Positions 4,652-35,827 of a DNA stretch of 64,000 nucleotides are shown in pieces (the first letter of the stretch is position 1; each line of letters opens with the position of its first letter). Below the pieces are notes generated by a model, which was not told the DNA's origin, searched no databases, and saw nothing but the letters and a program-made list of their open reading frames with translations. The DNA is from Naegleria gruberi. Its lineage: Eukaryota. The translations under genes and the position numbers were made by a program. Location of the stretch: assembly GCA_000004985.1 (NCBI GenBank), contig GG738870.1; one strand, 5' to 3'.

Positions 4652-4655
4652 CACC

Positions 4656-9404: not shown

Positions 9405-9408
9405 GGTG

Positions 9409-17524: not shown

Positions 17525-19618
17525 ATGAGTACACTTTATCAACAGGTACCAAAATATATTATTCAAGATGAATTGACGAATATTGTTCAGAAGAGAGAGG
17601 AAAAATATATTGGAGGGAAAATTGGGAACGATGTTATTCCAAGACACTTGACAATATGTAATCAATCTAGAGAATGTATTTATTTTTCTGAGCAATCGGA
17701 AACACTTTATTATATTGATGCTCGTCAATCAACTATGAAAAATATTAAACATGCTAAAATACAAAAGGTAATTAATTTGGAATGGGAATTTATTAATAAT
17801 AATTAAATAGATCCTAAAGACTGATTTGATTTTAAGAAATATTAAACAAATTAGTTATAATAGCAGTGGAAATAGATTATTAGTAATTAGTGACTTTGAT
17901 ATTAATGTTATTTCTATTCCAGAATATAAATCTGGTGATTCCGAATCGGTTAACACAACAATAGAATTTTCTCTTTCTTTATTAGAACACTCTAGTCAAA
18001 ATGTAAAAGTTTCTTGGCATCCACTCAGTAATGATCATATTGTTGCTCTTGATAGTGATTCAATTTTAAGAATTATTCAAGTTAGTTCTGGTAAAATTGA
18101 AGAAATACCTCTCTTAGAAAAGACAAAAGATTCTGTTGCATCATTTTCATTTGGATCTAAGAAATTATGGGAACGTTTTACCATTTACCTTACAACAACG
18201 ACACAAGCATTATTTGCTCTATGCCCAATTATTCCAAGTGGATGTGTTGTTTCGGAAAAATTCTTAGCTGATATTGTTAACAGTACCTATAGTTTTGAAA
18301 TGGAATCGGTCAAACATTTTTTTAGTGGAATTATTTCAAATGTATCTGATGATGAAGAGAATAGAGAAGTAACCTTAAAAACATCCACAAAGGAAAATCA
18401 TGCATTCAAAAACAGGATAATTCCAATCCACAATAAGAAAGTATCGAATTTAGATATAGCAGATATGATTACAATTAATCAAAATTCCAATTTACCATCA
18501 TGTCTAGTAACTGTAAACACAAGTGGAGTTATTCATCTTTTTGTAATTACTGACAATATTAGACCTGTATGGAAAAAAAAGTCATTCGATGTAAACGTAT
18601 CACCACAAGTTATTGAAGCTAGTTGTATACAAGAGGTTTTAACAGGAGATAAAATGAATAGCTCACTGCCTCCTTATTTAACTTTACATCCATTATCTAT
18701 TGAGACAGTTTATTGCGTTCATGAAAGAGGTGCTAATGAAATTACTTTCCCATTTATTTCTACTATGTTTACAGAAAAAATTGCTGCTATCCAATTTGAG
18801 AAAACCGTCTCTTGCCCTTTATTTATTTCTACTGAACTGTATGTACAATTTTATCATATTTCAACTTATTATTGTTTAGTGTTGAGCCTCCTAAAGCCTT
18901 TGATATTTTACACGACATTTTATATGGTACCACAATCTTCTATATTGAGAATAAGAACCAACGTGTGTTAATTTCCTCTGCAAATATTCCTGTTATATAT
19001 GACAATGAAGAAAGTTGTACTTCAGTCTATAATTCTGATTTCTCCAATGCACTTGATAATATTGTCAACAATCTTCACAAACCAGTCCAAATTAATAAGG
19101 GTTGGAATAAGCTTGAACTTCCATTTATTCAAATTTCTGAAAATACAGCTGTTGCTGACGAACTCATCAGCTTTACCCTCCAAAAGTTGAAAAAGATGGC
19201 AGAAACTCAGAATAGACATCAACAATCACTCGAAAAGTTGACTGTGATGGATACTCAAATGAGACAAACTCAGAATAATATCGATGACAAATGTAAGAAA
19301 TTATATGACAAACACAAAGAATTGCATGATAGAATCAAAAGAATCTATGAGCTTGTTTTCGTAAGAGAGCTCAATAAGGAAGAAAAACAATTTATCAAGG
19401 ATATTAGAGAAAAAGATAAGATTATCAGTGCTTACAAACAAAAGTTAGAAAACACTAGACAAGTTTTAGAAAATTATAAGGATAAACCAATCAATACCAA
19501 CCAAGAAAGCAATAACTACACTCCTGAAATAATGGAAAAGATTACCACTTATATGGATAAGACATCAAGGATAATTGAGGCTACAAGAGAAGAATTACTT
19601 TCAATAAAGCAAAAATAA
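17525..19618 (+). CDS. Nup88/Nup82-like nucleoporin candidate (beta-propeller plus C-terminal coiled coil); exons 17525..17767, 17811..18838 and 18880..19618
   Basis: Two short introns (GTAATT at 17768 to AG at 17810; GTATGT at 18839 to AG at 18879) join three listed ORFs in frame. The architecture and LFALCPIIPSGCVV (human Nup88 VLCLPCVPNILV) suggest Nup88. Identity is tentative. Confidence 0.4.
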
Positions 19619-19619
19619 G

Positions 19620-21491
19620 TTATTCATTTTTCTTTTGCAGAATTGTGTCACCTAAACGAACTTTTTGTCCTTTGTGAAGATTGAATTCTAAGCGATCTTC
19701 TTCATTGCTTTCAAAAATGAGGATAATGGTTGAACCAAGTTTGAAATAACCTAATTCTTCACCCTTCTCTATCGAAAGACCTCCTTGAACATAATTTCTT
19801 GACAAAACAACAACTTCTTCACCTTGTTCTGGATCCTTGATGTGCTCTTCCTTTGTCTTCTTATCTACAAGTTCAACCTTTTCAGTTTGAGTTGGTTGGG
19901 CTGGTTGAGATGGTTTGGTCTTCTTCTTTCTTGGTCTCTTTACATTGGTTCTCAAAGAATTATCAAAGTTTACAACACATGACCCCACATTCAAAGCACC
20001 AACAATAACATAATGCATGTTACCATAATCCCATTTACCATTAAGAACAACTCTTTCATTTTGTGTGTACAAATTAGGATACTTGTTCAAATAGAGAGGC
20101 ATGACAGGATAAAGTTTACCATAAATATGTTTTCTTGACTCTACAGTCATATCACAAGGGCTGTGGAATCTGTGATAATCACCAGGAGCCAAATATAATA
20201 CACAATAATGTAATTGTTTCTTTTGCTTTGTGTTTTGATTGTTGTTCGATACAGCAGCTTGATCATGTTCCGAATATTCTTCTCCAATAGTAATTTCTTC
20301 ATCTTGTTGTGGTTGATATCCATTACGCTTTGAAAATACAGAAAAGTGATTGTTAAATGTAATGTTTTGTGACTTTTCCTTTTGTAATAATTGTTGCATT
20401 GAATAAGTTACACCTTTAACTTGTGGAAGGTAAATATGTTCATAGGTTTCATCCAATTGGTCAAGTTCAACAGATAATGTACCAAATCTTGCAACTGTAC
20501 CATCGACAGGAGAAACCATTAGTGATCTTTGATATTCACGTTCAATATCATTCAAGTCAGCATTTTCATCGAGATGGATCTTTCTCAGAATCTTTCTCTT
20601 GTGTTGAACACTGAGTGAAGGTCTTGTTGTTGGTTTTAATTTTCTTGAGAAAAAGTCTTGAAGACTGGCATATTCTTCTAACGGCTTTTCAATCTCTTCC
20701 ATATTTACATTATAAAACCAACCATAGGCATTATATACCAATGGTCTAAGTATTTCTGGACGAAGTTCTGTGCTTCCGATATTACCCCAACATCTTGATA
20801 TAAAGTTTGTTGGAATAGCCTTTGATAATAATTGTAAAAAGGTTTGCTTTTCTGGTTGTTGGTGTAATTGTTTTTGTTCCTCCAAGTCTACTAAAAAGTC
20901 ATCATTGATATCGGTCATGTCAAGATAATTAAAGAAGGATCCTAGTATTAGTAGTATGGTGGATGTTGTTGCGGCACCCAACAAGAAATATTTGAAGAAT
21001 TTTTTTATGTAACCTTTTTTCTTCTTCTTTGGAGGTTCTTGGTTGTTCGATGAGTTATTATTACCACCCCTGTTATTGGTGCTGCTACTGGATGATGATT
21101 TTTCATCACCTGTTGTTGTTGTAGTGCTAGTAGTAGAAGTTGTAGAAGATGGATTGATTCCTGTGGAAGTATTGTTATTATTAGAGGTAGACATGACAGG
21201 AATTGAATGATGATATAATCTTTTAGAATTAATAGAAATCATCGGATTATTTAAATTCATAGATGACACTGAATGATTTAGACTTGTTGAAAAACATCTC
21301 CAACTTTGATTTAAATTACTAGTGTTATTATTAATAATAGAATTAGAAGCAGTAAAACCAGATGAAATGATATTACTACCAACAATATTGACAATAGGAT
21401 TACTCGAGGAATTTGATGAATTGATGAAGGAAGCCGAGTGCAAGCTCTTCTTGATAAGTTGAGCCTTCTTTAATGCAAAACACTGCTTCAT
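19620..21491 (-). CDS. PISD: phosphatidylserine decarboxylase proenzyme (type I, N-terminal extension with N/S/T-rich low complexity and a hydrophobic anchor)
   Basis: GDYHRFHSPCDMTV motif, and the self-cleavage site LGSTIILIF (GST) near the C-terminus. Confidence 0.8.
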   Translation of the reverse strand: MKQCFALKKAQLIKKSLHSASFINSSNSSSNPIVNIVGSNIISSGFTASNSIINNNTSNLNQSWRCFSTSLNHSVSSMNLNNPMISINSKRLYHHSIPVMSTSNNNNTSTGINPSSTTSTTSTTTTTGDEKSSSSSSTNNRGGNNNSSNNQEPPKKKKKGYIKKFFKYFLLGAATTSTILLILGSFFNYLDMTDINDDFLVDLEEQKQLHQQPEKQTFLQLLSKAIPTNFISRCWGNIGSTELRPEILRPLVYNAYGWFYNVNMEEIEKPLEEYASLQDFFSRKLKPTTRPSLSVQHKRKILRKIHLDENADLNDIEREYQRSLMVSPVDGTVARFGTLSVELDQLDETYEHIYLPQVKGVTYSMQQLLQKEKSQNITFNNHFSVFSKRNGYQPQQDEEITIGEEYSEHDQAAVSNNNQNTKQKKQLHYCVLYLAPGDYHRFHSPCDMTVESRKHIYGKLYPVMPLYLNKYPNLYTQNERVVLNGKWDYGNMHYVIVGALNVGSCVVNFDNSLRTNVKRPRKKKTKPSQPAQPTQTEKVELVDKKTKEEHIKDPEQGEEVVVLSRNYVQGGLSIEKGEELGYFKLGSTIILIFESNEEDRLEFNLHKGQKVRLGDTILQKKNE

Positions 21492-21591
21492 TTTTTATGT
21501 CAACACTTTTCACAATGCCCACCAACACATTCAATCGATTGGATAACACATTGAAATAAGATTAAAAAAAATAATAAGGATAATAAATTAT

Positions 21592-22254
21592 TTAAAAGAA
21601 ATCATCCAAATCTTTAGATTCTTCAACTTCGTCACCACCATCTCCGAAAAAGTCATCATTATAGTTGCTATGGGCTTTCTTCTTATTATTACTGGAGAAG
21701 AGTGAATCATACGATTTGGCTTCAGCTTCCTTCTTTCTTCTTTCTAATTCTTCCTTTTCCTTCTTTGCTCTTTCTTTTGATTCACGTTTTTGCATTTCTC
21801 TGAAATTCTTGTCTCTTTGCATCTTTTCCTTTTCAAAATCTACTTGTTTTTCAACTTGAGTCTTGTTTAATCTGTTACAGATTTCCTTATTCTTTTGAAT
21901 GACAACGTGACGAACAGCCTTTCTGTCAAAGAATCCAACTTCACCAGTGTCCATGTCACCTGTTTTTTTAAGATTTGAAGCCATTGTATAAACTACTTTG
22001 ACTTGTGGTTCCTTTTTACCTTGAATTGAATTGTATTTTGTAAGTTGAGACAAGTCTTCAATAACTTCCTTCGGAATATCGTTGATTGTCTGTCCTGTAT
22101 GTAAACGTAAATAAACGTGAGCAGAACTGAATCCGTCAACGTGGAACCAGACATCTTCTGGGAATGAATACTTGATGAGATCTTCATTTTCAAACTTGTC
22201 TCTACCCATGTAAACTACATAGGAAGGATCAATACAGGTAAAGTAAAAGACCAT
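21592..22254 (-). CDS. CCDC25: CCDC25 / Jlp2 homolog (NFACT-R_1 / DUF814 domain)
   Basis: [51 protein letters not shown] is near-collinear with human CCDC25 [50 protein letters not shown]/E-rich tail. Confidence 0.8.
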   Translation of the reverse strand: [220 protein letters not shown]

Positions 22255-22302
22255 TTTTTTTTAAATTTCAAAATTTAATTAATTGATGAATTTAAATTTA
22301 GA

Positions 22303-23970
22303 TTAATGTTTATTTTCTAATTTTTGTTCCAAAGCTTGAATTCTTTCTAAACAAAATTCAATCAATTGGTCTTGTCTTTGAATGGTTTCTTCCAAGTTTT
22401 CAACTTTCTTATTTAAAATTTTGATAATTTCAGAGTTGACAGCTGTGGAATTCTCAACATTAATTGTTTGATCCAAATGTTTTCTTTCAATTGAGTGAAT
22501 AATATCTTCATCTTTAGCTAAATCTATTGGTGTTTTACCTTGAGCATTTTTCAATTGAATATTTGCACCAGCGTCAAGTAAAGCAGTTGTAATTTTCTTC
22601 TTGAAATCGAGTTCTTCATCTGTCGTTGCTGGTAGAACTGCAATATGAAGAGCAGAGTTGCCTTCTTTATCAACTGAGTTTACAAATTCAGGAAACATTT
22701 TGACAATGAAATAAACAACTGATTCTCTCATATTTTCCACAGCAACATGTAGAGGTTGTCTATTCTTATTATCAACATTCTTTTCATCAATATTAAGGGT
22801 AAACGGAGGATTTAACAACACTTTCAATAATTCTATCTGACCTCCAGCTGCAGCCCAATAAACACAAAATGATTTCTGAATATTAATTCCCTTTGATTGG
22901 AAAAAAGAAACCATTTCCAAGTCTCCCAGATATGATGCAAGCGCTATAACATTCATGTTAACCTTTCCAAATTTCTTATGTTTGAATTTTCTGTTCATAT
23001 CAGCATTCTTGTTGATTAAGAAAAGAATCATTTCCTTTTGCTTATTCATGACAGCCTCACATAATGGGGTCCAGTTCTGATAATGAGTGGAGAAAAAACA
23101 AGCATCAATGTAAGCTCCTTTTTGCAACAGATAATTTACAAGTACAGATGAACCGTGGCGAACAGCAAGGTGAAGGGAAGTCTTTATATTTGTTACTGAA
23201 ATCAAAGAAACCAAAATACTTACTTCATGTTCACTCAATGGTTGTAAAATATCCACACCTAACATGTTCAATAATTTTAGATAATCCAAATTACTATTAA
23301 TGGCACATTTTATGACACAATTAAGGATCGTTTCTTTAAATTCTTTTGCAACAATCCAAGCATCAAAATTATCTGCCTTCTCAATGGCATTAGCAACAAA
23401 GTATTCACTAATATAACTATCGTACAAAATATTAATACAATCATAAAGATTAGTGTGACAGACCATGTAGTGAAAAGGAGCTGTAATCATGTTATCGTTA
23501 ATGAACAATGAATAAAACATACTCAGTCCATTTGAATCTTTAAGCTTCAAAAACTCATCCAAAAATTTCAATTCTTTCATCTTCTCAAACACAAAGCTCC
23601 CGTTAGAAAAATCAAGGTCATTTGAACCTTTATGTTTGAAACCATATTGAATGGCCAAGTGAAGACAATTTCTATTCTCCAAACAAAGATGAGGTCCTTT
23701 TAATTGACTTGCATTGGAAGTTGTAAATAACAGTTTTAGTCTGGAAACGGAACCTTCTTTCAATGAAAACACAAACTCTTTCAATACATCCGATTCAAAA
23801 GTTTTTGATTTTATATCTTCCATTATGCTTGCATTCCTCTTTCTTCCTAATTCCTTTTCACTCTCGTCTTTGACATGAAGACCTTCATTCATCTTCATGA
23901 TTGTATTTTTCCTTAATACACTTTGCCTCCTTGAAGGAGAAATAGGAAGCTGAGGTAATGGCTTGCTCAT
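22303..23970 (-). CDS. ankyrin-repeat protein with a C-terminal coiled coil
   Basis: Multiple ANK units (LHLAVRHGSSVLVNYLLQKGAYID, PLHVAVENMRESVVYFIVKM..., SALHIAVLPATTDEELDFKKKITTALLDAGANIQLKNAQGKTPIDLA). Confidence 0.6.
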   Translation of the reverse strand: MSKPLPQLPISPSRRQSVLRKNTIMKMNEGLHVKDESEKELGRKRNASIMEDIKSKTFESDVLKEFVFSLKEGSVSRLKLLFTTSNASQLKGPHLCLENRNCLHLAIQYGFKHKGSNDLDFSNGSFVFEKMKELKFLDEFLKLKDSNGLSMFYSLFINDNMITAPFHYMVCHTNLYDCINILYDSYISEYFVANAIEKADNFDAWIVAKEFKETILNCVIKCAINSNLDYLKLLNMLGVDILQPLSEHEVSILVSLISVTNIKTSLHLAVRHGSSVLVNYLLQKGAYIDACFFSTHYQNWTPLCEAVMNKQKEMILFLINKNADMNRKFKHKKFGKVNMNVIALASYLGDLEMVSFFQSKGINIQKSFCVYWAAAGGQIELLKVLLNPPFTLNIDEKNVDNKNRQPLHVAVENMRESVVYFIVKMFPEFVNSVDKEGNSALHIAVLPATTDEELDFKKKITTALLDAGANIQLKNAQGKTPIDLAKDEDIIHSIERKHLDQTINVENSTAVNSEIIKILNKKVENLEETIQRQDQLIEFCLERIQALEQKLENKH

Positions 23971-23987
23971 TTTTTTAATAAGACACT

Positions 23988-24164
23988 ATGCTACTGGGAT
24001 GTGTTATCATTACAGCAATATTAATAAAAATGAATAGAGGATGTATGGATGTTAACAGTTTAGTAGTTGGAGGAGTACAGGATGTAAAAGACAATGTGGT
24101 CGGAGGATTCCACACTTTGAATAAGGCTACATCAATTTTGAAGAGAACACTTATCACCTGTTGA
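23988..24164 (+). CDS. short paralog (58 aa) of the GGVQDVK-repeat small-protein gene at 28243..28644
   Basis: MLLGCVIITAILIKMNRG...VVGGVQDVKDNVVGGFHTLNKATSILKR, roughly 75% nt identity to 28350..28560 (hand alignment, not computed). Hydrophobic N-terminus. Possibly a truncated or pseudogenised copy. Confidence 0.3.
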   Translation: MLLGCVIITAILIKMNRGCMDVNSLVVGGVQDVKDNVVGGFHTLNKATSILKRTLITC

Positions 24165-24584
24165 TCATTCAATCCTTTGAATATGTTTACTTTTCCATTG
24201 ACAGAATTTCACATTATTTGTAGATTTGAATTCAGCTTCTTCCTCCTGTTTTTCAGTTAGTAGTTTTACATTAATTTATAATTCATTCTTTGTATTTGTT
24301 TACACAAGAGAATAGTTAATAATAAGAATAGACAAAAGATTCTTGAATGTCCAAGTTTTTACAATGATAAAATGGCCAAACACAACCCTAACTACCGATA
24401 GAAATAAAAAATCAATCTCATTCATGACGGTTGAAATATGAGAATGACAGTTTACAATGATTTTGAAACTAAAATGATTGGATGATCATAGACTTATTGT
24501 ATTGACGTAGAGAATTCACAACCCATACAAACTCTTAAAAGTGTTTGGTCTAAGAGAAAGAAAGGTATTAAAAAAAACATAACA

Positions 24585-25868
24585 ATGAAAGTTTCAAATT
24601 TATTATTCATTTGTCTATTCCTATTCACTTTTGCTTACAAGTTGACTGTTGCCTCTAGCACTTCCAACATGCTACAACCAGTCAATTTATTTCAGAAGAG
24701 AACATCTCAAGCAGTGTGCACATGTCCTAGATGTCCAGACAAAATTAACATCAACAATTTCTTGTTCTCAACTGAGGTGAATTGTCCCACCAAGTGTCCC
24801 ACAGGCTATTACGTCAATGGAATGGATCTCTTGATTTCACCATTTAATGACTACCATACCTACATTATTGAAACTACATCCACTGACACTTCAAACAAAA
24901 TTAATGACTTGTCAAAAGATCAAACCAGATACAATCTTGGAGATTGTTTCAGTGCCTCTACTTCCTTAAATCTTGATACCACTGATTACACTACCAAGAT
25001 TACATGTAAGAATGCCATTACTCAATGCTCAGTTCAAGTGAAAAATGTTTGTTTTTGCTCCAAATCCCCTTCAAAATTGGTTATTATTGCTCCTTCTCTT
25101 GTTGTGACTGGATCTAAATACACACCTGAAGTAAGAATTGTTGACAATGATGGAAATATAGTTCCAAGAAACTATCTCATTGAATTCATTTCACCTGGTC
25201 AATCCTATACTTCTATGGCATCAAATGGTATCATGAAAGTTAATGAACTTATTGCCCCAAGCTCTGGTACTGTTACATTAAGAGCTTCTATCAGTTCTCT
25301 TTCAGGTTCTGCTCCTTCATTGACTTCTGCTGAGTTTACTGTCACTGTCACTCAATCCTTATTCACATGTTATGGTGCTTCACCTTCCAACAGTTCTGTT
25401 TGTAGTGGTAAAGGAACATGTACTGCTCAAGATGTTTGCTCATGTTTCACAGGATACAGTGGTAGTAAATGTGAAACATTCTCCTCAACCACTCAAGTTT
25501 CCAGCATTAAACTCTCAGTTCCCTCCACTGTGAATAGTGGTTCTCAATTTACTGCAACTGTTTCAATGTTGGATTCAAGTGGAAGTACCATGAAATCAGG
25601 TTCAGGAACTATCACTTTGGATATTGTTGGTGCATCTTCTGATGTTACAATGGTTGGTGATAAGTCCAAAGTGGCAGGTGAAGGTGTTGCTTCATTCTCT
25701 GTTCAATTGTCAACATTGACATCAACTTCGATCTCTCTAAAGGCGAACTATCAAACACTTTCAGATACCAAATCAGTTAATGTGGATATATCCAGGACAT
25801 CTCAATGTGCTGCCATTTGGAGTTATCTTTTCACAATAACCTTTTTTGTAATTTTATTTATTATCTAA
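24585..25868 (+). CDS. secreted, probably GPI-anchored, Cys-rich glycoprotein with an EGF-like module and Ser/Thr-rich repeats
   Basis: Signal peptide MKVSNLLFICLFLFTFAYKL. EGF-like CSGKGTCTAQDVCSCFTGYSGSKCE. S/T-rich segments. C-terminal hydrophobic tail AAIWSYLFTITFFVILFII typical of a GPI signal. Confidence 0.6.
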   Translation: MKVSNLLFICLFLFTFAYKLTVASSTSNMLQPVNLFQKRTSQAVCTCPRCPDKININNFLFSTEVNCPTKCPTGYYVNGMDLLISPFNDYHTYIIETTSTDTSNKINDLSKDQTRYNLGDCFSASTSLNLDTTDYTTKITCKNAITQCSVQVKNVCFCSKSPSKLVIIAPSLVVTGSKYTPEVRIVDNDGNIVPRNYLIEFISPGQSYTSMASNGIMKVNELIAPSSGTVTLRASISSLSGSAPSLTSAEFTVTVTQSLFTCYGASPSNSSVCSGKGTCTAQDVCSCFTGYSGSKCETFSSTTQVSSIKLSVPSTVNSGSQFTATVSMLDSSGSTMKSGSGTITLDIVGASSDVTMVGDKSKVAGEGVASFSVQLSTLTSTSISLKANYQTLSDTKSVNVDISRTSQCAAIWSYLFTITFFVILFII

Positions 25869-25922
25869 TAATAATAATATTGCATTAAATAAATTTAATA
25901 TTACAAAATTTAATTATTATAA

Positions 25923-26266
25923 ATGGATCAAGACTTCATTGACTCAAGTTATTTCTCAAATGATCTGACAAAGTCTAATAACATCAAGTCATGTATTAGA
26001 ATAGTGTTCAAGTAGGTAATACCAGTAGTATTTTACGTGAATTTTATCATGAGCTTCCAAAGAAACATTCTAAGGGAGGTCAATCTCTTGAAAGATTTGC
26101 TAGAAATAGAGAAATTGCCAAGAATGAATATCTAAAGATTATTGCAGAGAAGGCAAATTCTTTATTCGTATCGCCAACTTTGAATGCTCCAACTGTAGAT
26201 GCTATTATTCTTGCTGGATGTGCTGAATTGAAGAATGAATTACTTTCTCTCAAATCTGATTGTTTG
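25923..26266 (+). pseudogene. ETF1: eRF1 (peptide chain release factor subunit 1) relic retaining NIKS-like and GGQ-motif segments
   Basis: 25923.. encodes ...LTKSNNIKSCIRI (eRF1 TASNIKSRVNRL). In the +1 frame from about 25998, VQVGNTSSILREFYHELPKKHSKGGQSLERFARNREIAKNEYLKIIAEKANSLFVS...AIILAGCAELKNELLS matches eRF1 domain 2 ([47 protein letters not shown]...LVLAGSADFKTELS). Domain 1 is mostly missing, the two segments are in different frames, and there is no room for domain 3 before the next gene. Confidence 0.5.
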
Positions 26267-26302
26267 GTAATAGTAAAATAGTAAAAAGTAACTAAGAGTG
26301 AT

Positions 26303-27398
26303 TTAGGTCAATTTGAACATGCCTTGAATTGCCTTGGCAGAGTAAGCTTCTTCCAAACTCTTCTTTTCTTCATCGGTTAATTGAATTTCCAATGCTTGCA
26401 CATTGAGTTCAATATTTACAGCTTTAGTGGCGCCAACAATTGGACAAGCAACACCTGGCTTGGAAAGCAACCAAGCAAGTGCAATTTGAGCAGGTGGTAC
26501 ATTTCTCTTCTTTGCAATTTCTGAAACTCTTCTCAATGTTTCTTTATCACCCTCTGTTAAATTTTCCTTAAATATATTTTGGAAATAATCAGAGGTAGCT
26601 CTCTTGGAATCAATTGCTTGTTCAGCATTGACAAATTCATGAGCACGAGCGAGCATTCCATTGGAAAGAGGTCCCCATGGAGTGAGAGAAACATGTTGGT
26701 CAACACATAATGGATTCATTTCTCTTTCTTCTTCTCTATAGATGAGATTGTGGAGATTTTGCATGGAAATGAATTTGGTCAATCCCTTCTTCTCAGCATA
26801 GTGTTGAGCTTTAGCAAATTGCCAAGCAAACATTGTGGAAGCACCAATGTATCTGACCTTTCCAGACTTGACTAAATCATGGAGTGTTTCCATAGTTTCT
26901 TCAATTGGAGTATTTTCATCCCAACGATGGATAATGTACAAATCAATGTCTATTCAATCAATCATTATTAATCAAATGAAATATTTCAGTAAACTTACAA
27001 TCGAGACCTAATCTTTGCAATGAATCTTCAACTGCATGCATAATGTGCTTTCTGGAGAGACCAAAAGTGTTTGGTTTCAACTTGCTAAAGTCCATTACCA
27101 TAGATTGTTCACCACTTCTGTCCACTGGAGCACAAACTTTGGTAGCCACAACAATTTCCTCTCTTGAAATGTTGAATTTCTTAATGAAATTTCCTAAAAT
27201 TCTTTCACTTTCTCCATTACTATAAACATTGGCAGTATCGAAAAAGTTAATTCCCAAATCCCATGCCTTCTTCAAAATGATCATTGATTCCTCTTCATTC
27301 AATACCCAAGGCATCCACTTGGAAGATCCAAAACTCATACAACCCAAACAAAGTTGAGAAACCTTCAAACCACTATTACCCAAATTGACGTATTTCAT
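26303..27398 (-). CDS. aldo-keto reductase family oxidoreductase; exons 27398..26999 and 26949..26303
   Basis: The N-terminal ORF (MKYVNLGNSGLKVSQLCLGCMSFG...SLQRLGLD) and C-terminal ORF (IDLYIIHRWDENT...) are joined by a 49-nt intron (donor GTAAGT is the revcomp of ACTTAC at 26993-26998). The junction restores the AKR consensus LGLDYIDLYIIH. Confidence 0.8.
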
Positions 27399-27513
27399 TG
27401 TTTCTTTAATATTTTTTCTCTATCAAACTATGAAGCTTATTCAATAAGAATTGAATTTGTTTTTTTTGTTTTTGAAATTGTTCTTCTTTATTGCCAGCGA
27501 ATTTAAGTAGGAA

Positions 27514-27613
27514 AATTTGTGCTCATATTTTCGCGAGCAGATTAATGTTTTGATGGTTTTGGATGGATATGATGATTTAAAATTGTGCTCACATTTTCAC
27601 GAGCAGATTAATG
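27514..27613. repeat. two 33-bp direct repeats (27514..27546 and 27581..27613, 30/33 identical) with a TTTTCGCGAG / TTTTCACGAG core
   Basis: ATTTGTGCTCATATTTTCGCGAGCAGATTAATG versus AATTGTGCTCACATTTTCACGAGCAGATTAATG, about 150 bp upstream of tRNA-Met. Confidence 0.7.
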
Positions 27614-27760
27614 ACTGTAGACATTTAAAAAAAGTGAATTCTTTTTGTAAATTGGTACAAGGTCAATCTGGTTTTGGATGTTATGTAATTCCTTTTGTAA
27701 GCACTCAAGCACTCACTTTGGACTTCAACAAGCATTCATACTTTTGGCTAATAATGTATC

Positions 27761-27833
27761 GGGGTCATGGCGCAGTCGGTAGCGCGTAGGTCTCATAATC
27801 CTAAGGTCGTGAGTTCGATCCTCACTGACCCCA
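27761..27833 (+). tRNA. tRNA-Met elongator (anticodon CAT)
   Basis: Acceptor GGGGTCA/TGACCCC, D-arm GCGC-AGTCGGTA-GCGC, anticodon loop CTCATAA (CAT at 27794-27796), T-arm GTGAG-TTCGATC-CTCAC. G1-C72 and a close match to the eukaryotic elongator Met sequence. T5 at 27836-27840. Confidence 0.85.
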
Positions 27834-27835
27834 AC

Positions 27836-27840
27836 TTTTT
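27836..27840 (+). terminator. Pol III T-run terminator after tRNA-Met
   Basis: TTTTT sits 3 nt after the discriminator base. Confidence 0.5.
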
Positions 27841-28242
27841 GCTTTCAATTAGTCATATTTAAGAACCCTTATTGAACTTTCCACGAAGAGGATTCTGGAA
27901 CAACAAGGTGGAAATAGTATTAGATTTTTAAATTTATGCCTTCAAGATTGGTTTCAACATCATCTGTTAAATCTGTTAAACCACAAAAGAAAGATAAAAA
28001 CAAAGCCAGTAAATCCTGTGAGAAAGAAGCTCAAAACCAATAATGCCAAACTTCATACCAGCCCACAACAAAGCTAAAATCCAAATCCCACAACCAGCGA
28101 AAATAGTGCCTGAGCACGTGGTGATATTAGCCAACTCCAGAATTCGGTATTTTATTATAGAATAGAAACAGAAATATGAAGGAATTTTCAAATTAATGTT
28201 GCTAAATGGCTTTTAGGCTGTATTAAGACAGATGTTAAGAAT

Positions 28243-28644
28243 TTGAGAATGAAAGTTGGTGCCCTGTTACAAGGTGCTCAGTCGTCTTTTAACAGACATT
28301 ATCAATGGCTTGTTCTGTTTTTTAACGATAAAACATCTATGCTTCTTGGACGTGTTATTATTACAGCAACATTAATAAAAATGAATAGAGGATTTATAAC
28401 GGAAGGTGTACAGGATGTTAAAGGTTTAGTGGTCGGTGGTGTTCAGGATGTTAAAGGCTTAGTAGTTGGAGGAGTACAGGATGTAAAGGACAAGGTGGTT
28501 GGAGGATTCCACACTTTGAATAAGGCTACATCAATATTGAGGAGAAAAATTATTAGTGATGTTGGAAATGCTAAGGAACTAAATAAGAAGGTGATCAGTT
28601 ATTTTACAGGAAAAGAGAGTAGGTTGATGAAGAATATTATTTAA
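28243..28644 (+). CDS. small protein with three tandem 11-aa repeats (GGVQDVKGLVV); paralog of 23988..24164
   Basis: 133-aa ORF. ...EGVQDVKGLVVGGVQDVKGLVVGGVQDVKDKVVGGFHTLNKATSILRRK. Hydrophobic segment LLGRVIITATLIKM. No known family recognised. Confidence 0.45.
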   Translation: MRMKVGALLQGAQSSFNRHYQWLVLFFNDKTSMLLGRVIITATLIKMNRGFITEGVQDVKGLVVGGVQDVKGLVVGGVQDVKDKVVGGFHTLNKATSILRRKIISDVGNAKELNKKVISYFTGKESRLMKNII

Positions 28645-28715
28645 TAATTAATAATTATAAATAATATTTTAAATAGAGGCTCTTGAACATCCTTCAACAA
28701 TTAATTTTGCATCAG

Positions 28716-30765
28716 ATGAATTTGATCCTGAGGATTGTAGGTTATCATCAATGTTTAATAATTCTGATTTTTAGATACTGATACCTTATTCACAAAATCC
28801 GATTACAAACAAATTGAAAGCAATTGGCTTGCAGGATTATCTATTGAACAAACAAAAGCAAAGGAAAAATTACAAGAATTAGTTTCAGATAATTATATAC
28901 AATTCATTGATGCTTCAAAAGAGGTTTCAAGTTTTATGGATGTTGATTTGATTGAAATTGGTAATCTTGTAACTTCTATGAAAAATGTTATTTCAGACAT
29001 TGACTCAGTTGATTTGACTTTGGATTATAGATGTTTGTACCCAACTTTTAAAAGTGTTGATGTTGAGGCTTTAAGAGAAGTTGAATATACAATGCTACCA
29101 GAATTGGAAATGATAATTTCTCAAAGACTATTTCACAAAGCAGCAGAATTGGTTGAATTAATAGATAAAAAACTAGTGTTGGAAGATGATATCAAAATGG
29201 AAAAAGACTACAGAGCGTCACTTCAACAATTGAAAAAGAAATTCTACCAAAAAAGAATTGAACTCAGTGAATCTGTTTCTGAGTCGGTCAAAAGTGGCCT
29301 TTCCAGTAATAAGGATGTTAAATTATTGGAAAAAATTTCAGGAACAGAGATTGCTATTACAACTTATCTAAAAGGAAAAAAGGTTAGAATTAAGAATATT
29401 CTTACAAAGATAGAATGCAGAGGAAATGTTGAGGACTACACAAAAACAGCCTCCAAACATGTTTTCAAGATGATTGAAGTAGTTTGTGCGGAGTTTAGAG
29501 AGTTATTTACTGATGATACAAATACCTCTTTTTTTATTCAGTGGTCATTTGAGGTGTTAGAAAAATTAGTCTCCACTGTCAAAGTTCAAATATTAGGTCA
29601 ACAATGTTTTGAAACCACATCTAACAGTATCAATGTTATCATTAAGAAGGCTCAACAGTTAGAAAAGATGGGTATCACAGTATCTTTCTACATACATAAA
29701 CTGTTGTTACCTGATGTTGAGAAAACAATGAGACAACGATGTATTGAATTAAGAGAGGAGATATTTAGAATAGCTTGTTCTGAATTATGGAATTACAAAA
29801 ATGTTCCCTGCGATTTATTTGCTGTTGCCCTTCCAGATGTTGTAAAGCAATTGAAGGTGGGGCAAAGTTGCCTTGTATTTGTGAATAGTATTCGTACTTT
29901 TATTATTAATTGTAGTTTAATAGTTTCCTCATATGTAAGTAATCACATACCAATATCTTACACCGTCAAGTCTTTCAATATTGTAAATATGTGTGTCACA
30001 GAACTCTTTGAGACTACCTTATCAAAATATTATGAGATTGGTTTGTCAAAAACCATTAGTGAGAAACAATTCTTTGTAATTTTATCAAGTTCAAGGTTTA
30101 TCTTACAAGGAATGTTGGAGGAGGTTTCAGAGATGTTAAAGGTTTGTTCTTGTAAACATATTTTCTCTTTAACATTTGATTAGTTATTATTTGATAAGAA
30201 TTTACCAGTAGAAATTACAATTCTTAAATCTAAAATATTTGGTTTTGATTCAAGATTGTTAGAGAAATATTGTGAGAACAAAGCTTTCAATTTAGTAGAT
30301 GAAAAAATAGGATGGAATCACAGCTACATTGCTCAAGAAATATCATCTGTAACGAGTGTCAGCAAATTCTTTGCTCAGGTCATCTCATACTTTGATAAAT
30401 TATCGAATCATATAGCTTCATCTTTTGACAAGGATTCTATCCCAATAATGAGGCTTTTCATTAAATATACGGTAGAATATCTTACTGACAAGAGTAATGC
30501 AATGACAAGCATGATTGAGGATACAAAAGAATCAGCAAAGAAACATAAGGTTAATCAGATTATTCTTGATCTGAGCTACTTTAAACAACAATTATCAAGC
30601 AGAGATTTTATTTCAGAGGAAGTAAGTATTGTTTTAATCATAATTATTTACCCATGATAGGATGAGGATACGATTATATCATATATTGATTTCATAAGAG
30701 ATTTAAACCATGGATCAGAGAGTGTGCTCTCTAATCGAGCAATTGAAGAGATACTTAATAAATAA
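28716..30765 (+). CDS. Exo84 (EXOC8)-like / CATCHR-family vesicle-tethering subunit candidate; exons 28716..28740 (tentative), 28775..30141, 30184..30621 and 30661..30765
   Basis: Introns GTTTGT(30142)..TAG(30183) and GTAAGT(30622)..TAG(30660) join ORFs 28936..30183, 30256..30657 and a terminal 35-codon exon. The N-terminal segment ...ELVSDNYIQFIDASKEVSSFMDVDLIEIGNLVTSMK parallels Exo84 ...KRNVYQNYRQFIETAREISYLESEMYQLSHLL. AQQLEKMGITVSFYIHKLLLPDVEKT parallels HCQQLGDIGLDLTFIIHALLVKDIQG. The first micro-exon and start codon are uncertain. Confidence 0.4.
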
Positions 30766-30836
30766 ACTTTGCCGCCAATTTCTCCCGCTTTTTGTTGGCG
30801 TTTTTCAGTACAACAATAAAAATCAATATCAAAAAA

Positions 30837-32900
30837 ATGCACTCAAGTTACTTCCTCAATCACAAGTCATCTAGGCCTAAGAATGATGATACGGAAGAAG
30901 ATGAAGACATTATTGTTGAATTATCAACAAAAAAAGACCAAAGAAAAGTTATCTTAACTGGGTCTAAGGAAGAAATAAATACATCTGAAGATGAAGTTGA
31001 AGAAGGATATTTATCGGATAGCTTAAAAGAGGTTGACTATCATAACTTGGAAGAACCATCTTTCATTGAAAATTCGGATGAAGAAGATATGGATCTCATA
31101 ACGATACAATCACTAAGGGAATCTCATCAGCAAAAATTAGACCAAGTGGAACGAGAATACCTCTCTCTTAGAGAAAAGAACAATATGTCAGTTGATGTGC
31201 ATAAAACAAGAAATGTTCGGATTAAAAACCCAATGAATTCATACAGAACAGTCACATTTAGTGACCAATTTGATGAGGAGCCAAGAAACTCTCCTAAATC
31301 TGACACTGAAGAAAGGGATTTCTCTCAAGTAAACAGAAGAGTATCTGAGATCATCAGTGAGGTCAGTTTGGACGACGATAATACCAGTGTCAGTTCTGAT
31401 GACACTGAGTTCAAACAAGATTACAAACACTATTTCAATGACCCAAGTTTACATAATCAATTGATTGATGAAGAGTCAGTAGAACGAGACTATAACTATA
31501 ATGATATTAGTGACACTTGTACAGTGATTTCGGATGTGTCAGAATTTGTAAAGGAAAGAGATGCCGAGGGACCAACAGAAAACATCGAACGTAAAAACAT
31601 CACTGTGCCTCTTCCATTCAAATTTGAGGACAGAGAGGCCAGAAAGCCTTTGGGCATTCATAGAAGGAAGATGGATGACTATATCAATAAGATTAAAATG
31701 GAAGAAGAACATCATCTCAACAAAAGATTCAAAGCAAATCCAGTTCCAAAATCAACAAAGACTCCTTTATATGAATCTGTAAGAATAAGGACTGAATTAC
31801 AGACAAAGCTGGAGAGAAAGGCTCTTGAGGAAATGACTAAAAAAATAATTAAGCCATTTTATTTTGCTGAGAGAGACGAAAGGAGGTCCAAACAATTAGA
31901 AGAAGAGAAAATACTAAAACAAGAGGAGCATTATATGAGATTTGAAAAAGGATTTGTGGCTAATCCAGGTTTGTTTCAAATTTTCCTATATTCTTACATC
32001 CAAAGTTCCCTCACATACTTTCAGACATATTTATACTATAAAACAAGAAAGAGAATCACAAAGGAGAAGTGAAAGAGTTCAAGAAAGATCCCAACGACTT
32101 CTTCGCCAATCCTCTCTCCCTCCTAGAATGGAAATGTGGAATAAGGTCGGAAAATCACAAGCTATATGTAAGTAATACTCCCTTTGAGATCCAATTTCTA
32201 AAATATGTAGCAAACCCATTAGAAAACGATTTAACATTACATCCAAAAATCAATCATAACGTTCCTGTAAGTATTAGGATAAATTTTATTCTAACAAGAT
32301 CAGGACTTTGACCATCTTCACCGAAAATTCCAAGAAACTCTGTATCTTGCAAAGAGAACTCAAAAGCTAACAGTTCCACAACCATTCAAGTTCAATAGTA
32401 CGTTAACTGAAAAAGATATGAAGAGAATTGCAGATGAGGTAGGATTAGATGATGTGGTTCTTCACGATTCAAGGTCAGACTGGGAAAAACAAGATTTCAA
32501 GGCAAAAATTTCAAAACGACCATCATCTGCAACCCAAAGCAGGCCTCAAAAGGATACCTTTGCAACTAGAATGAGAAATGAACAAATTAAAAAACAAATA
32601 GCTGAAAGAGAGGAAAGGAAAAAGGAATTGGAAACATTGAGAGGAAAGCAATTCAATCAACAACGAAAGATTTTCAACAGAGTGGCGCCAAATATTGACA
32701 AACAAGAAAACAAAGAGAATTTTTATGCCACTCTTTCGAATACTCAAAAAAGGAGAGAGAAAGATGCTCTCATTGATGCAAAACCCTATCTTTTCGAAAC
32801 CTCTTTGAAGAAGGAAGCTAAGGAGAAAGTCTATGAGGATCTGAAGAAAACTCTTTCAGAAAATGGAACAGCCTATTTATTATCCTCTCTTAAATTGTAA
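30837..32900 (+). CDS. TPX2/FAM161-family (FxAxPxP-motif) microtubule-associated protein-like; exons 30837..31968, 32006..32167 and 32299..32900
   Basis: The listed ORF starts at an upstream TTG; the first ATG is at 30837. A 37-nt intron (GTTTGT at 31969, AG at 32004-32005) restores FVANP|VPSHTF. A 131-nt intron (GTAAGT at 32168, AG at 32297-32298) joins the C-terminal ORF. Motifs FKANPVPKSTKTPLYES, KPFYFAERDERR, VPQPFKFNSTLTEKD. Confidence 0.5.
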
Positions 32901-32927
32901 CAAATTAAATTATTGTAAAATAAAAAA

Positions 32928-33308
32928 ATGAGCAAACAACAACCTGGTGACAATGAGGACAAGAACAAGACGGAGAGGAGAATGAAAAATTTATATAGAT
33001 GGTTAAATCCAAAAGAAACAAATGAATTTTTAAATTCCGATTTTGAAACTCCAAAAACTATTGCAAATGCAGAAAAGGATGCAAAACTTTTTCCTACTGA
33101 ATTAGAAATTTTAGATAGAGCAAAATTAATTGAAAAAAATCAAGTTGATGATGAAGAATTATACTCCTTCAGTTCTCAATTTGGACCAATTAGTAGATTA
33201 ACAAAAGATCAAAAGAAGGATATTTTAAAATTAATTGAAAAGAATAGAATTGATATTCCAATAGAATACAAGACATATTTAACAGATTTAATCGATGAAG
33301 ATATTTAG
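32928..33308 (+). CDS. hypothetical small protein (126 aa)
   Basis: Single ORF with the local codon usage. No domain recognised. Confidence 0.35.
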   Translation: MSKQQPGDNEDKNKTERRMKNLYRWLNPKETNEFLNSDFETPKTIANAEKDAKLFPTELEILDRAKLIEKNQVDDEELYSFSSQFGPISRLTKDQKKDILKLIEKNRIDIPIEYKTYLTDLIDEDI

Positions 33309-33316
33309 TTTACAAA

Positions 33317-33778: not shown

Positions 33779-33909
33779 TTTTTTAATTAAATTTGTTTTC
33801 GAAAAAGAGTTTTATTAGAAGGACTTGTTTGGGAAGTAACATTTGTACAACCTTCCAATTACTATCTAATATCTTAATACATATTGTTGTACAAGGTTTA
33901 TTTATTTAT

Positions 33910-34571: not shown

Positions 34572-34829
34572 TGTATGATCGTGATGATGAAAGGCTAATT
34601 TTTTTAAAAAATTAAAAATTAAAAAAATTAAAGGTGATGTAATGCTGTACAGATCACTACCAGGCTATTTTCATCCGATATCGAGATGAAACAGCTTGAT
34701 TTTATTATGGTGTTCTATGGTACATGGAATATAATTACACTATAGTTTACTACAGCTCTTAGAATTTTCATCACCACAAATATAGACAATTTTGATAGAG
34801 AACCTTTTCAAAAAAAATACACATTCATT

Positions 34830-35816: not shown

Positions 35817-35827
35817 AATAATATTTA

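What the first reader, a model, noticed from the sequence alone, without database searches (positions are those of the whole stretch)
23988..28644. Accessory-looking island bracketed by paralogous GGVQDVK-repeat mini-genes
Two same-strand paralogs bracket about 4.2 kb: a truncated copy at 23988..24164 and a full copy at 28243..28644. The full copy carries three tandem 11-aa repeats (GGVQDVKGLVV). The bracketed region holds a lineage-typical secreted GPI/EGF glycoprotein, an eRF1 pseudogene relic, an aldo-keto reductase, a pair of 33-bp direct repeats and tRNA-Met. The paralogs are roughly 75% identical by eye over about 200 nt, which suggests a segmental duplication, perhaps tRNA-associated insertion or recombination. 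The repeat protein belongs to no family I recognise. It is a candidate novel secreted or membrane peptide family.
Basis: seen in the sequence. Interest (0 to 1): 0.65.

Follow-up and report, generated by a model that had tools for sequence, protein, structure and literature searches.

The report
Exo84 first exon, duplicated by insertion
The two "mini-genes" are not a new peptide family: the full one is the first exon of the Naegleria gruberi exocyst gene Exo84, and the short one is a leftover duplicate of its 5' end, made when a 4.15-kb block of unrelated genes was inserted there.

Summary
Segments 23957-24154 and 28304-28553 are same-strand duplicates, 88.6% identical apart from a 48-nt in-frame indel, and they bracket 4.15 kb. 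That block holds an EGF-like surface-protein gene, an eRF1 fragment, an intact aldo-keto reductase gene, two 35-nt repeats and tRNA-Met.

The window is Naegleria gruberi. The "full copy" is exon 1 of Exo84. In N. gruberi, N. fowleri and a third Naegleria-like species, a GT donor sits at the same codon position (…GKE|GT). A 38-58-nt intron follows and joins in frame to the exon that begins the Vps51/Exo84_N domain. Two independent N. fowleri annotations start Exo84 with this exon.

N. fowleri and the third species have a single copy directly upstream of Exo84 and no island. In the third species the ankyrin gene lies head-to-head with Exo84, their ATGs 19 nt apart.

The island is therefore most likely an insertion in the N. 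gruberi lineage into Exo84 exon 1. The event duplicated about 200-250 bp carrying both genes' starts, so both genes stayed intact. Copy A is the decaying relic.

The secreted or membrane peptide reading and the tRNA-targeting reading are not supported. Interest is low: a tidy structural variant.

The parts
22303..23970 (-). Ankyrin-repeat protein gene (N. gruberi EFC44124.1), transcribed divergently from Exo84. Its first 14 nt (23957-23970) lie inside duplicated segment A.
   Evidence: Exact match to EFC44124.1. Pfam Ank_2 E=7e-24. An ortholog sits head-to-head with Exo84 in L007/L008.
23957..24154 (+). Copy A: a relic duplicate of the ankyrin/Exo84 shared 5' region plus the first part of Exo84 exon 1. 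It lacks the last 65 nt of the exon and the splice donor. It has two degenerate 33-nt units and an ORF at 23988-24164.
   Evidence: 88.6% identical to 28304-28553 with a 48-nt in-frame indel. Changes at residues conserved in the orthologs (K to N, K to T) fall on the A lineage.
24155..28303 (.). The 4.15-kb island, an insertion specific to the N. gruberi lineage and absent from the orthologous site in N. fowleri and in the L007/L008 species.
   Evidence: Synteny by tblastx/blastn and gene maps. No terminal inverted repeats. No transposase, integrase or RT domain on the ORFs submitted to Pfam: EGF gene, both AKR exons, eRF1 relic, 71-aa ORF. No close viral relatives of the two island proteins.
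24585..25868 (+). EGF-domain protein gene with a signal-like N-terminus and a hydrophobic C-terminal tail (EFC44031.1).
   Evidence: Exact match. Pfam EGF_2 at 23.1 bits against a 22.1 cut-off. A 98.5% identical copy is in ENA metagenome contig L001.
26000..26278 (+). eRF1 fragment (domain 2 including the GGQ motif), a pseudogene relic lying between two convergent genes.
   Evidence: Pfam eRF1_2 E=2.5e-17, profile positions 19-93 of 133. Stops surround it in all frames.
26303..27398 (-). Aldo-keto reductase gene, intact. Exon 1 is 27398-26999, the intron is 26998-26950 (49 nt, phase 1), and exon 2 is 26949-26303. It overlaps the annotated EFC44125.1.
   Evidence: Pfam Aldo_ket_red on both exons. 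The spliced 348-aa product matches PDB AKRs end to end, DepB E=4e-57. The exon 2 ORF clusters with EFC44125.1.
27513..27613 (+). Two 35-nt direct repeats (27513-27547 and 27579-27613) upstream of tRNA-Met. Function unknown.
   Evidence: 91% identical. Only these two copies in the window, none expected by chance. No Rfam hit and no stable fold.
27761..27833 (+). tRNA-Met (CAT), carried as cargo of the island.
   Evidence: ARAGORN. Rfam tRNA at 70.1 bits.
28304..28380 (+). Copy B, upstream part: the duplicated 5' flank of Exo84. It includes a dead relic of the first 14 nt of the ankyrin CDS (28304-28317, ATG lost) and an in-frame upstream ATG at 28339.
   Evidence: Alignments (D10, 42). Sequence read directly.
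28381..28618 (+). Exo84 exon 1. The probable start ATG is at 28381 in an AAAAATG context. It encodes 79 codons plus 1 nt, including three 11-aa repeats (28405-28503) and a conserved tail, NKATSILRRKI.S.VG.AKE.NKKVIS.FTGKE.
   Evidence: 65% amino-acid identity to the N. fowleri Exo84 N-terminus. pN 0.23 against pS 0.79 versus N. fowleri. Predicted as a single long helix, pLDDT 73.
28619..28676 (+). Exo84 intron 1 (58 nt, GTAGGT...ATAG, phase 1).
   Evidence: A donor at the same codon position and an in-frame acceptor are found in N. fowleri (50 nt) and L008 (38 nt). Intron identity is 55% against 71-78% in the flanking exons.
28677..28736 (+). Exo84 exon 2 (60 nt). It contributes the first residues of the Vps51/Exo84_N match (aa 91-176; exon 2 = aa 80-99). 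It has no in-frame ATG, and a TAA at 28670-28672 closes the frame upstream.
   Evidence: The spliced product hits PF08700 at aa 91-176, 29.9 bits against a 24.2 cut-off.
28737..28774 (+). Exo84 intron 2 (38 nt, GTAGGT...TTTAG).
   Evidence: The N. fowleri model CAG4715816.1 is spliced at the same point.
28775..30183 (+). Exo84 exon 3, holding the rest of Vps51_N and the Exo84_C domain. The gene continues in further exons beyond 30183.
   Evidence: Pfam Exo84_C E=2e-18. Colinear with N. fowleri Exo84.

Best explanation
The window is Naegleria gruberi. The "full mini-gene" is exon 1 of the exocyst subunit gene Exo84. Translation probably starts at ATG 28381; an in-frame ATG at 28339 is the alternative. 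The exon encodes a roughly 79-residue, predicted alpha-helical N-terminal extension with three 11-residue repeats. It ends at a GT donor at 28619. A 58-nt phase-1 intron then joins it to exon 2 (28677), where the Vps51/Exo84_N domain begins.

Ancestrally this exon lay head-to-head with an ankyrin-repeat gene, their start codons a few tens of nt apart. In the N. gruberi lineage a 4.15-kb block was inserted into exon 1. The block carries an EGF-like surface-protein gene, an eRF1 fragment, an aldo-keto reductase gene and tRNA-Met.

The event duplicated the roughly 200-250 bp that carries both start codons and the shared 5' region. The ankyrin gene therefore keeps its upstream sequence, which is copy A, now a decaying exon relic with no splice donor. 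Exo84 keeps a complete exon 1 with its own upstream sequence, which is copy B and includes a dead relic of the ankyrin start.

Shown: the duplication, the exon identity, the conserved splicing geometry, and the absence of the island in two other lineages.

Inferred: the polarity (insertion rather than loss), the start codon, and the molecular route. The route could be a templated insertion or template switch, or single-crossover integration of a circular intermediate. Either would leave a long flanking duplication.
For: Organism: exact matches to N. gruberi EFC44124.1 and EFC44031.1.

Duplication: E=2e-41, 186/210 identical, 48-nt in-frame indel.

Homologs of the ORF: an exhaustive phmmer search found only two genuine short homologs. 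P0005 (70 aa) is 65% identical and P0010 (68 aa) is 59% identical. Both include the C-terminal tail that only copy B has.

Genomic context: both homologs sit immediately upstream of Exo84. L005/L006 are N. fowleri.

Annotation in N. fowleri: Exo84 proteins CAG4715816.1 (735 aa) and KAF0980773.1 (715 aa) both begin MSKELIAEGVQDVK...FTGRE, which is P0005. In CAG4715816.1 this is spliced to KTLEHPSTINF....

Splicing geometry: the donor falls after GA[AG] A, and the acceptor gives an in-frame join in all three species. Intron 1 is 58, 50 and 38 nt. Homology between the ORFs ends exactly at the donor. Exons are 71-78% identical and introns 55-58%.

Domain content: the spliced N. gruberi product gains PF08700 above its cut-off, plus PF16528. 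Exon 2 has no ATG, and the next in-frame ATG at 28936 would truncate the domain.

Coding constraint: pN 0.23 against pS 0.79 versus N. fowleri.

Synteny: window 18003-22275 and 28438-36000 are colinear with N. fowleri. The 6 kb holding the ankyrin gene and the island is replaced there by a 725-nt spacer. L007/L008 have ankyrin(-), exon 1(+), Exo84 with ATGs 19 nt apart and no island.

Relative age: A and B differ at dS about 0.21, while synonymous sites between species are saturated. Exo84 amino-acid identity is 64% for Ng-Nf, 59% for Ng-L008 and 54% for Nf-L008.

Second strain: a strain 1.5% divergent shares the island interior.
Against: There is no transcript evidence for N. gruberi, so the splice and the start codon rest on comparative inference.

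The two junctions (about 24155 and 28303/28304) are seen only in this assembly. The metagenome contigs of the second strain cover only the interior.

The whole N. gruberi genome could not be searched. Further copies of the segment and the donor locus of the island remain unknown.

Gene conversion between A and B could make an old duplication look young.

Only two outgroup lineages were available, and one is an unidentified metagenomic organism.

The molecular mechanism of insertion is not established. A 200-250-bp flanking duplication is far longer than classical target-site duplications.
Confidence: 0.82

Rival explanations
1. One reading: the two ORFs are members of a novel family of small secreted or membrane peptides encoded by stand-alone mini-genes.
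For: Both reading frames are open. There are no Pfam hits. Prokaryote-style gene callers called the orthologous ORFs as separate 68-70-aa genes in metagenome contigs. Copy A's upstream ORF part has a borderline hydrophobic stretch, KD 1.62.
Against: An in-frame GT...AG intron joining to Exo84 is conserved in three species. Annotated N. fowleri Exo84 proteins start with this sequence. Conservation stops at the donor, and the ORF tails after it are unrelated. Exo84 exon 2 needs an upstream ATG. The maximum KD in the 131-aa ATG-start reading of the full-copy ORF is 1.16, with no signal peptide, and the exon is predicted as one long helix. Only one copy per genome locus is seen in the relatives.
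Confidence: 0.04
2. The island and both copies are ancestral. N. fowleri and the L007/L008 lineage each lost the island by recombination between the flanking direct repeats, and gene conversion kept A and B similar in N. gruberi.
For: Direct repeats flanking a segment are a classical substrate for deletion. The result would be exactly one complete exon 1, as seen in the relatives.
Against: It needs two independent precise losses plus ongoing conversion. A and B are 88.6% identical, against about 68% between orthologous exons. The eRF1 relic and the unrelated cargo have no counterpart anywhere in the fetched colinear N. fowleri contigs around this locus.
Confidence: 0.08
3. The island is a mobile element or a tRNA-targeted integration, and A/B is its target-site duplication.
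For: It is flanked by a direct duplication of target sequence. A tRNA gene lies in the island.
Against: There are no terminal inverted or long terminal repeats. The ORFs tested carry no transposase, integrase or RT domain, and the unassigned spacers are at most 470 nt. The cargo consists of ordinary cellular genes, one with a spliceosomal intron. The duplication is 200-250 bp. The tRNA is 470 nt from the junction, and the empty sites have no tRNA. There are no close viral relatives.
Confidence: 0.04
4. The resemblance is a chance low-complexity match, or an assembly artefact.
For: The sequence is AT-rich and internally repetitive.
Against: E=2e-41, and the match extends well outside the 33-nt repeats into unique sequence on both sides. 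The copies differ by 11%, so they are not a collapsed or duplicated read set. Each copy keeps the neighbour expected from the orthologous loci.
Confidence: 0.01

Closest known systems
Exo84 / EXOC8 exocyst subunit, specifically the annotated N. fowleri Exo84 (CAG4715816.1, KAF0980773.1)
   Same: It is orthologous by synteny and sequence. It shares the same first exon with GVQDVK 11-residue repeats, the same two intron positions, and the Vps51/Exo84_N and Exo84_C domains.
   Different: N. gruberi has three repeat units where N. fowleri has two and the L008 species has about one. Its 5' flank has been rebuilt by the insertion. No PH domain was detected by Pfam, unlike opisthokont Exo84.
Templated insertions or template-switch rearrangements (FoSTeS/MMBIR-type) and Campbell-type single-crossover integration, both of which leave the target duplicated on each side of the insert
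   Same: Foreign DNA is flanked by a direct duplication of a few hundred bp of the target. A possible short stutter lies at the left junction (24167-24190 resembles 24107-24130).
   Different: The donor locus and any junction microhomology could not be examined. No circular intermediate is known. This is a resemblance in outcome only.
Transposon target-site duplications
   Same: A direct repeat of target sequence brackets the inserted DNA.
   Different: The repeat is 200-250 bp rather than 2-20 bp. There are no terminal repeats and no transposition enzyme, and the cargo is ordinary cellular genes.
11-residue-repeat amphipathic helices (apolipoproteins, alpha-synuclein, group 3 LEA, perilipins)
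   Same: It has 11-residue periodicity. It is predicted helical, with a hydrophobic moment peak at 98 degrees per residue (0.36; 15 of 2000 shuffles reach it).
   Different: There is no sequence similarity and no family hit. Only three units are present, and they sit at the N-terminus of a tethering-complex subunit. The periodicity test is biased by the repeat itself.

Membership tests
Exo84 (exocyst subunit) | Vps51/Exo84 N-terminal helical domain (PF08700) | tested here: met
   The spliced product hits it at aa 91-176 with 29.9 bits against a 24.2 cut-off. The domain starts in exon 2, which needs exon 1 for a start codon.
Exo84 (exocyst subunit) | Exo84 C-terminal domain (PF16528) | tested here: met
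   E=2e-18.
Exo84 (exocyst subunit) | The repeat-bearing ORF is the 5' exon of the orthologous annotated gene in a related species | tested here: met
   N. fowleri CAG4715816.1 and KAF0980773.1 start with P0005. The locus is colinear.
Exo84 (exocyst subunit) | Canonical, in-frame, positionally conserved splice sites linking exon 1 to exon 2 | tested here: met
   A GTAGGT or GTAAGT donor follows GA[AG] A, and the AG acceptor restores the frame in three species.
Exo84 (exocyst subunit) | Spliced mRNA observed in N. gruberi | not testable with these tools
   No transcript data were available.
Exo84 (exocyst subunit) | PH domain between the N-terminal helix and the C-terminal domain (opisthokont Exo84) | tested here: not met
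   Pfam found no PH hit in either the N. gruberi or the N. fowleri protein. This is likely lineage divergence rather than an argument against orthology.
Stand-alone secreted or membrane small-protein family | Signal peptide or transmembrane segment | tested here: not met
   The maximum KD(19) is 1.16 in the 131-aa ATG-start reading of the full-copy ORF. The exon is predicted as one continuous helix rich in K, D and G.
Stand-alone secreted or membrane small-protein family | Conserved stop codon or C-terminus, and multiple family members | tested here: not met
   The ORF tails after the donor are unrelated. Only P0005 and P0010 were found among 1.84 billion representatives, each being the Exo84 5' exon.
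Transposable element or integrative island | Terminal repeats and a transposase, integrase or RT gene | tested here: not met
   There are no terminal inverted or direct repeats other than A/B. The ORFs tested carry only EGF, eRF1 and AKR domains.
tRNA-targeted insertion | A tRNA gene at the insertion boundary or at the empty site | tested here: not met
   The tRNA-Met lies 470 nt inside the right junction. There is no tRNA at the orthologous sites.

The most novel reading that the evidence does not exclude
The event records a gene-block transposition route in Naegleria: a multi-gene segment copied from elsewhere was inserted by template switching or by integration of a circular intermediate. 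The long target duplication was what allowed insertion into a head-to-head gene pair with overlapping 5' ends to be tolerated. A more speculative add-on is that copy A, still an open 44-58-codon frame next to the ankyrin promoter, is expressed as a new micro-protein born from an exon relic.
Probability: 0.15. Interest if true: 0.4.

Novelty: new member of a known kind. Interest (0 to 1): 0.2.

Why it matters
It removes a false lead. An apparently orphan repeat-peptide family is the first exon of a conserved exocyst gene plus a duplication relic.

It suggests checking the N. gruberi Exo84 gene model. Exon 2 has no ATG of its own, so a correct model needs the exon at 28381-28618. I could not see how the reference model starts.

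It documents a well-polarised, lineage-specific 4-kb multi-gene insertion with an unusually long flanking duplication, inside a block that is otherwise colinear between N. gruberi and the pathogen N. fowleri.

It is also a caution for small-ORF discovery in intron-containing protist genomes, and in metagenome gene calls made with prokaryotic callers.

Tried and rejected
Word-indexed protein searches returned nothing or only P0005 and P0010, and missed the N. fowleri Exo84 proteins. I therefore do not use them as evidence of absence. In particular, I could not establish how the N. gruberi reference model of Exo84 starts.

The other hits of the exhaustive search (P0004, P0006-P0009, P0011) are long low-complexity repeat proteins, not relatives.

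The metagenome scan gave three hits on 54-70% GC bacterial contigs. They were seeded by the VVGGVQDV word and I judged them chance.

Viral-contig scans with the ORF, the EGF protein and the AKR found nothing.

N. gruberi gene positions are not in the contig index, so the reference annotation around the locus could not be read.

Exact look-ups of several candidate products were negative.

tblastx and blastn of the island against the rest of the window found no paralogs and no donor.

The Rfam scan found only the tRNA. The 35-nt repeats have no significant fold and no copies in the fetched loci.

Literature searches for Naegleria Exo84 found one comparative paper, with no held supplement.


Full report
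**Observation**

The DNA similarity is real and stronger than estimated. blastn gives E=2e-41. A global alignment has 186 of 210 aligned positions identical, which is 88.6%, with one 48-nt in-frame indel inside the repeat array and two small indels upstream.

The duplicated segment is 23957-24154 against 28304-28553. It begins upstream of both ORF ATGs and 14 nt inside the CDS of the opposite-strand ankyrin gene, whose ATG is at 23970. It ends 65 nt before the end of the conserved part of the long ORF. No third copy exists in the 64-kb window.

The 33-nt / 11-aa units lie at 28405-28503 (three units) and 24039-24104 (two degenerate units).

Every item listed between the copies checks out:
- EGF_2-domain protein gene at 24585-25868.
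- eRF1 domain-2 fragment with the GGQ motif at 26000-26278 (PF03464, E=2.5e-17).
- Aldo-keto reductase in two exons on the minus strand. I place its 49-nt phase-1 intron at 26950-26998. The spliced 348-aa product aligns end to end with solved AKRs (DepB, E=4e-57).
- Two 35-nt direct repeats at 27513 and 27579.
- tRNA-Met(CAT) at 27761-27833.

**Organism**

The ankyrin ORF and the EGF ORF are exact matches to Naegleria gruberi EFC44124.1 and EFC44031.1, on a 418-kb scaffold. AKR exon 2 clusters with EFC44125.1. Neither mini-ORF, in any start variant, is present as a protein in the collection.

**What the full copy is**

Pfam finds nothing in either mini-ORF, and the word-indexed protein search found nothing. 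An exhaustive phmmer search over 1.84 billion representatives found two genuine short homologs:
- P0005: 70 aa, 65% identical over residues 58-125.
- P0010: 68 aa, 59% identical.

The remaining hits were unrelated long low-complexity repeat proteins. Both true homologs carry the conserved tail (...NKAT..L..K..SEV..AKEVNKKVI..F.G.E) that only copy B has.

Their contigs show each lying immediately upstream of an Exo84 gene. L005 and L006 are N. fowleri, shown by an exact DeoC match to KAF0980768.1.

Reading the DNA shows the same geometry in N. gruberi, N. fowleri and the unidentified L007/L008 organism:
- The homology ends at a canonical donor, GTAGGT or GTAAGT, placed after GA[AG] A, which is phase 1.
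- A short, unconserved intron follows, of 58, 50 and 38 nt respectively.
- Its AG acceptor restores the frame of the next exon, which encodes K-[AT]LEHPSTINF..D.F.PE[DE] (KQLDHPSSINFGEDFDPEE in L007/L008), the start of the Vps51/Exo84_N domain.

That second exon has no in-frame ATG. In the window a TAA at 28670-28672 closes the frame just upstream. The next in-frame ATG, at 28936, would cut off the domain.

The spliced N. gruberi product scores PF08700 above its cut-off at aa 91-176, as well as PF16528.

Two independent N. fowleri annotations begin Exo84 with MSKELIAEGVQDVK...FTGRE, which is P0005. These are CAG4715816.1 (735 aa) and KAF0980773.1 (715 aa). The former continues exactly as I had predicted from the splice sites.

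Exons are 71-78% identical between N. gruberi and N. fowleri, and the introns 55-58%. For exon 1, pN is 0.23 against pS 0.79, the pattern of a translated and constrained sequence.

So 28381-28618 is Exo84 exon 1.
- island DNA (28243-28303);
- the duplicated 5' flank;
- the exon itself;
- the first 26 nt of intron 1.

The ATG at 28381 sits in the same AAAAATG context and the same register as the N. fowleri start (MNRGFITEGVQDVK against MSKELIAEGVQDVK). An in-frame ATG at 28339 cannot be excluded as the start.

**What the exon encodes**

AlphaFold on the three-sequence alignment gives one continuous helix over residues 3-76, with mean pLDDT 73.

The repeat part has a hydrophobic-moment maximum at 98 degrees per residue, the 11/3 periodicity. 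Fifteen of 2000 shuffles reach it, and the repeat itself biases that control.

There is no signal peptide or membrane-spanning stretch in the 131-aa ATG-start reading of the full-copy ORF: the maximum KD(19) is 1.16.

The exon therefore reads as an N-terminal helical extension ahead of the CorEx/Vps51 helix. Exocyst subunits in general are described as having an extended N-terminal helix important for assembly (PMC6784791).

The repeat number varies: three in N. gruberi B, about one and a half in A, two in N. fowleri, and about one in L008.

**What the truncated copy and the island are**

Comparing 18 kb of the window with the N. fowleri contigs shows colinearity on both sides:
- window 18003-22275 corresponds to L005 5283-9297;
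- window 28438-31655 corresponds to L005 10025-13359;
- the match continues to about window 36000 on L006.

The interval 22303-28303, holding the ankyrin gene and the island, is replaced in N. fowleri by a 725-nt spacer. That spacer has no ankyrin relic and no tRNA.

In L007/L008 the ankyrin ortholog is present, head-to-head with Exo84 exon 1. The two ATGs are only 19 nt apart and there is no island.

In N. gruberi, copy A keeps the ancestral neighbour on the left, the ankyrin gene, whose functional ATG lies inside the duplicated segment. Copy B keeps the ancestral neighbour on the right, the rest of Exo84. Copy B's upstream part contains a dead relic of the ankyrin start: CAGAACAAGCCATT where A has ATGAGCAAGCCATT on the minus strand.

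A and B differ by 11% (dS about 0.21, five synonymous and seven non-synonymous differences). Orthologous exons are about 68% identical, with synonymous sites saturated.

Over 150 residues of Exo84 the amino-acid identities are 64% for Ng-Nf, 59% for Ng-L008 and 54% for Nf-L008. The L008 organism is therefore at least as distant as N. fowleri, and probably an outgroup to both.

At positions conserved in both orthologs, the differences fall on copy A (KDK to KDN, RRK to KRT). Copy A also lacks the exon's last 65 nt and the donor.

The most economical reading is a single event in the N. gruberi lineage. It placed 4.15 kb into Exo84 exon 1 and duplicated roughly 200-250 bp of target. Because the two genes' 5' ends are interleaved, only an insertion that duplicated this region would leave both genes with a start codon and proximal upstream sequence.

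A second N. gruberi-like strain in ENA metagenome ERZ929261, 98.5% identical, shares the island interior (window 24235-25976 and 26018-27588). The event therefore predates that split. Its contigs do not reach either junction.

**Mechanism of the insertion**

This part is inferred, not shown.
- The island has no terminal inverted or long terminal repeats.
- The ORFs tested carry no transposition enzyme, and the unassigned spacers are at most 470 nt.
- It has no close viral relatives.
- Its GC content is typical of the neighbourhood, 0.345 against 0.311 for the window.
- It carries a gene with a spliceosomal intron.

It is therefore cellular DNA moved as a block, not a transposon. A flanking duplication of this length is what a template-switch or templated insertion would leave, and also what single-crossover integration of a circular intermediate carrying the homologous segment would leave. 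I cannot choose between these.

The short resemblance of 24167-24190 to 24107-24130, immediately after the left junction, could be a junction stutter or chance.

No paralog of any island gene and no donor sequence lies in the window.

The tRNA-Met lies 470 nt inside the right junction and the empty sites carry no tRNA, so a tRNA-targeted event is not supported.

**Rivals**

- Stand-alone peptide family. This is contradicted by the splicing geometry, the N. fowleri models, the loss of conservation after the donor, and the absence of any further members.
- Ancestral island lost twice by repeat-mediated deletion, with gene conversion keeping A and B similar. This is possible but needs more events. 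I give it about 8%.
- Chance or assembly artefact. This is excluded by the statistics, by the 11% divergence, and by each copy keeping its expected neighbour.

**Comparison with known things, and verdict**

The sequence is a member of the Exo84 family by domain content, orthologous synteny and shared exon structure. The PH domain of opisthokont Exo84 is not detected, in N. fowleri either.

The rearrangement is an instance of insertion with target duplication. It is unusual mainly for the length of the duplication and for its position in a head-to-head gene pair.

The practical yields are a gene-model check for N. gruberi Exo84 and a clean example of lineage-specific gene-block insertion in Naegleria. 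Interest is low, about 0.2.

Noticed in passing
window 24167-24190 vs 24107-24130: Immediately after the copy A/island junction, a 24-nt stretch matches 18/24 of the GFHTLNKAT-coding part of copy A. It could be a small templated stutter at the breakpoint or a chance match.
   Followed up: no
window 27513-27547 and 27579-27613: Two 35-nt direct repeats (AAAxTTGTGCTCAyATTTTCrCGAGCAGATTAATG) lie 150-250 nt upstream of tRNA-Met. They are the only copies in the window. There is no Rfam hit and no stable fold, and they are not found in the fetched loci. Contig L009 of the second strain ends inside the second repeat.
   Followed up: partly
window 24306-24335 vs 22756-22784: A 30-nt inverted match (90%, E=0.002) links the island's left part to the interior of the ankyrin CDS. 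It is AT-rich and possibly chance.
   Followed up: no
L005 9277-10000 (N. fowleri) vs window 22303-23970: N. fowleri has no ankyrin gene at this locus, only a 725-nt spacer between NFACT-R and Exo84. The L007/L008 organism and N. gruberi do have it. This is a second presence/absence difference in the same intergenic position.
   Followed up: partly
L007 1429-1453; window 23968-24032: The ankyrin and Exo84 start codons are head-to-head and only 19 nt apart in L007/L008. In N. gruberi copy A they are 17 or 59 nt apart, depending on which ATG is used. This implies overlapping 5' regions or promoters lying inside each other's coding sequence.
   Followed up: no
window 26303-27398 (-): The annotated AKR EFC44125.1 is 333 aa. 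The canonical GTAAGT...AG splice (intron 26950-26998) gives a 348-aa product that aligns end to end with solved AKRs. The reference model may differ at the intron or at the start.
   Followed up: partly
window 27834-28303: The 470 nt between tRNA-Met and copy B are unassigned. A 71-aa hydrophobic ORF on the minus strand (27976-28191) has no Pfam hit.
   Followed up: partly
window 4581-4652 (+) and 9408-9479 (-): Two tRNA-His(GTG) genes lie in opposite orientation about 4.8 kb apart.
   Followed up: no
L001, L009 (ENA ERZ929261, PRJEB11402): A public metagenome contains a Naegleria gruberi-like strain 98.5% identical to the window across the island interior. It could serve to test the junctions if longer contigs or reads were retrieved.
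   Followed up: partly
tool behaviour: The word-indexed protein search missed the N. fowleri Exo84 proteins, whose N-terminus is 65% identical to the query. This was probably because repeat-derived words saturated the candidate list. Only the exhaustive search recovered the family.
   Followed up: yes
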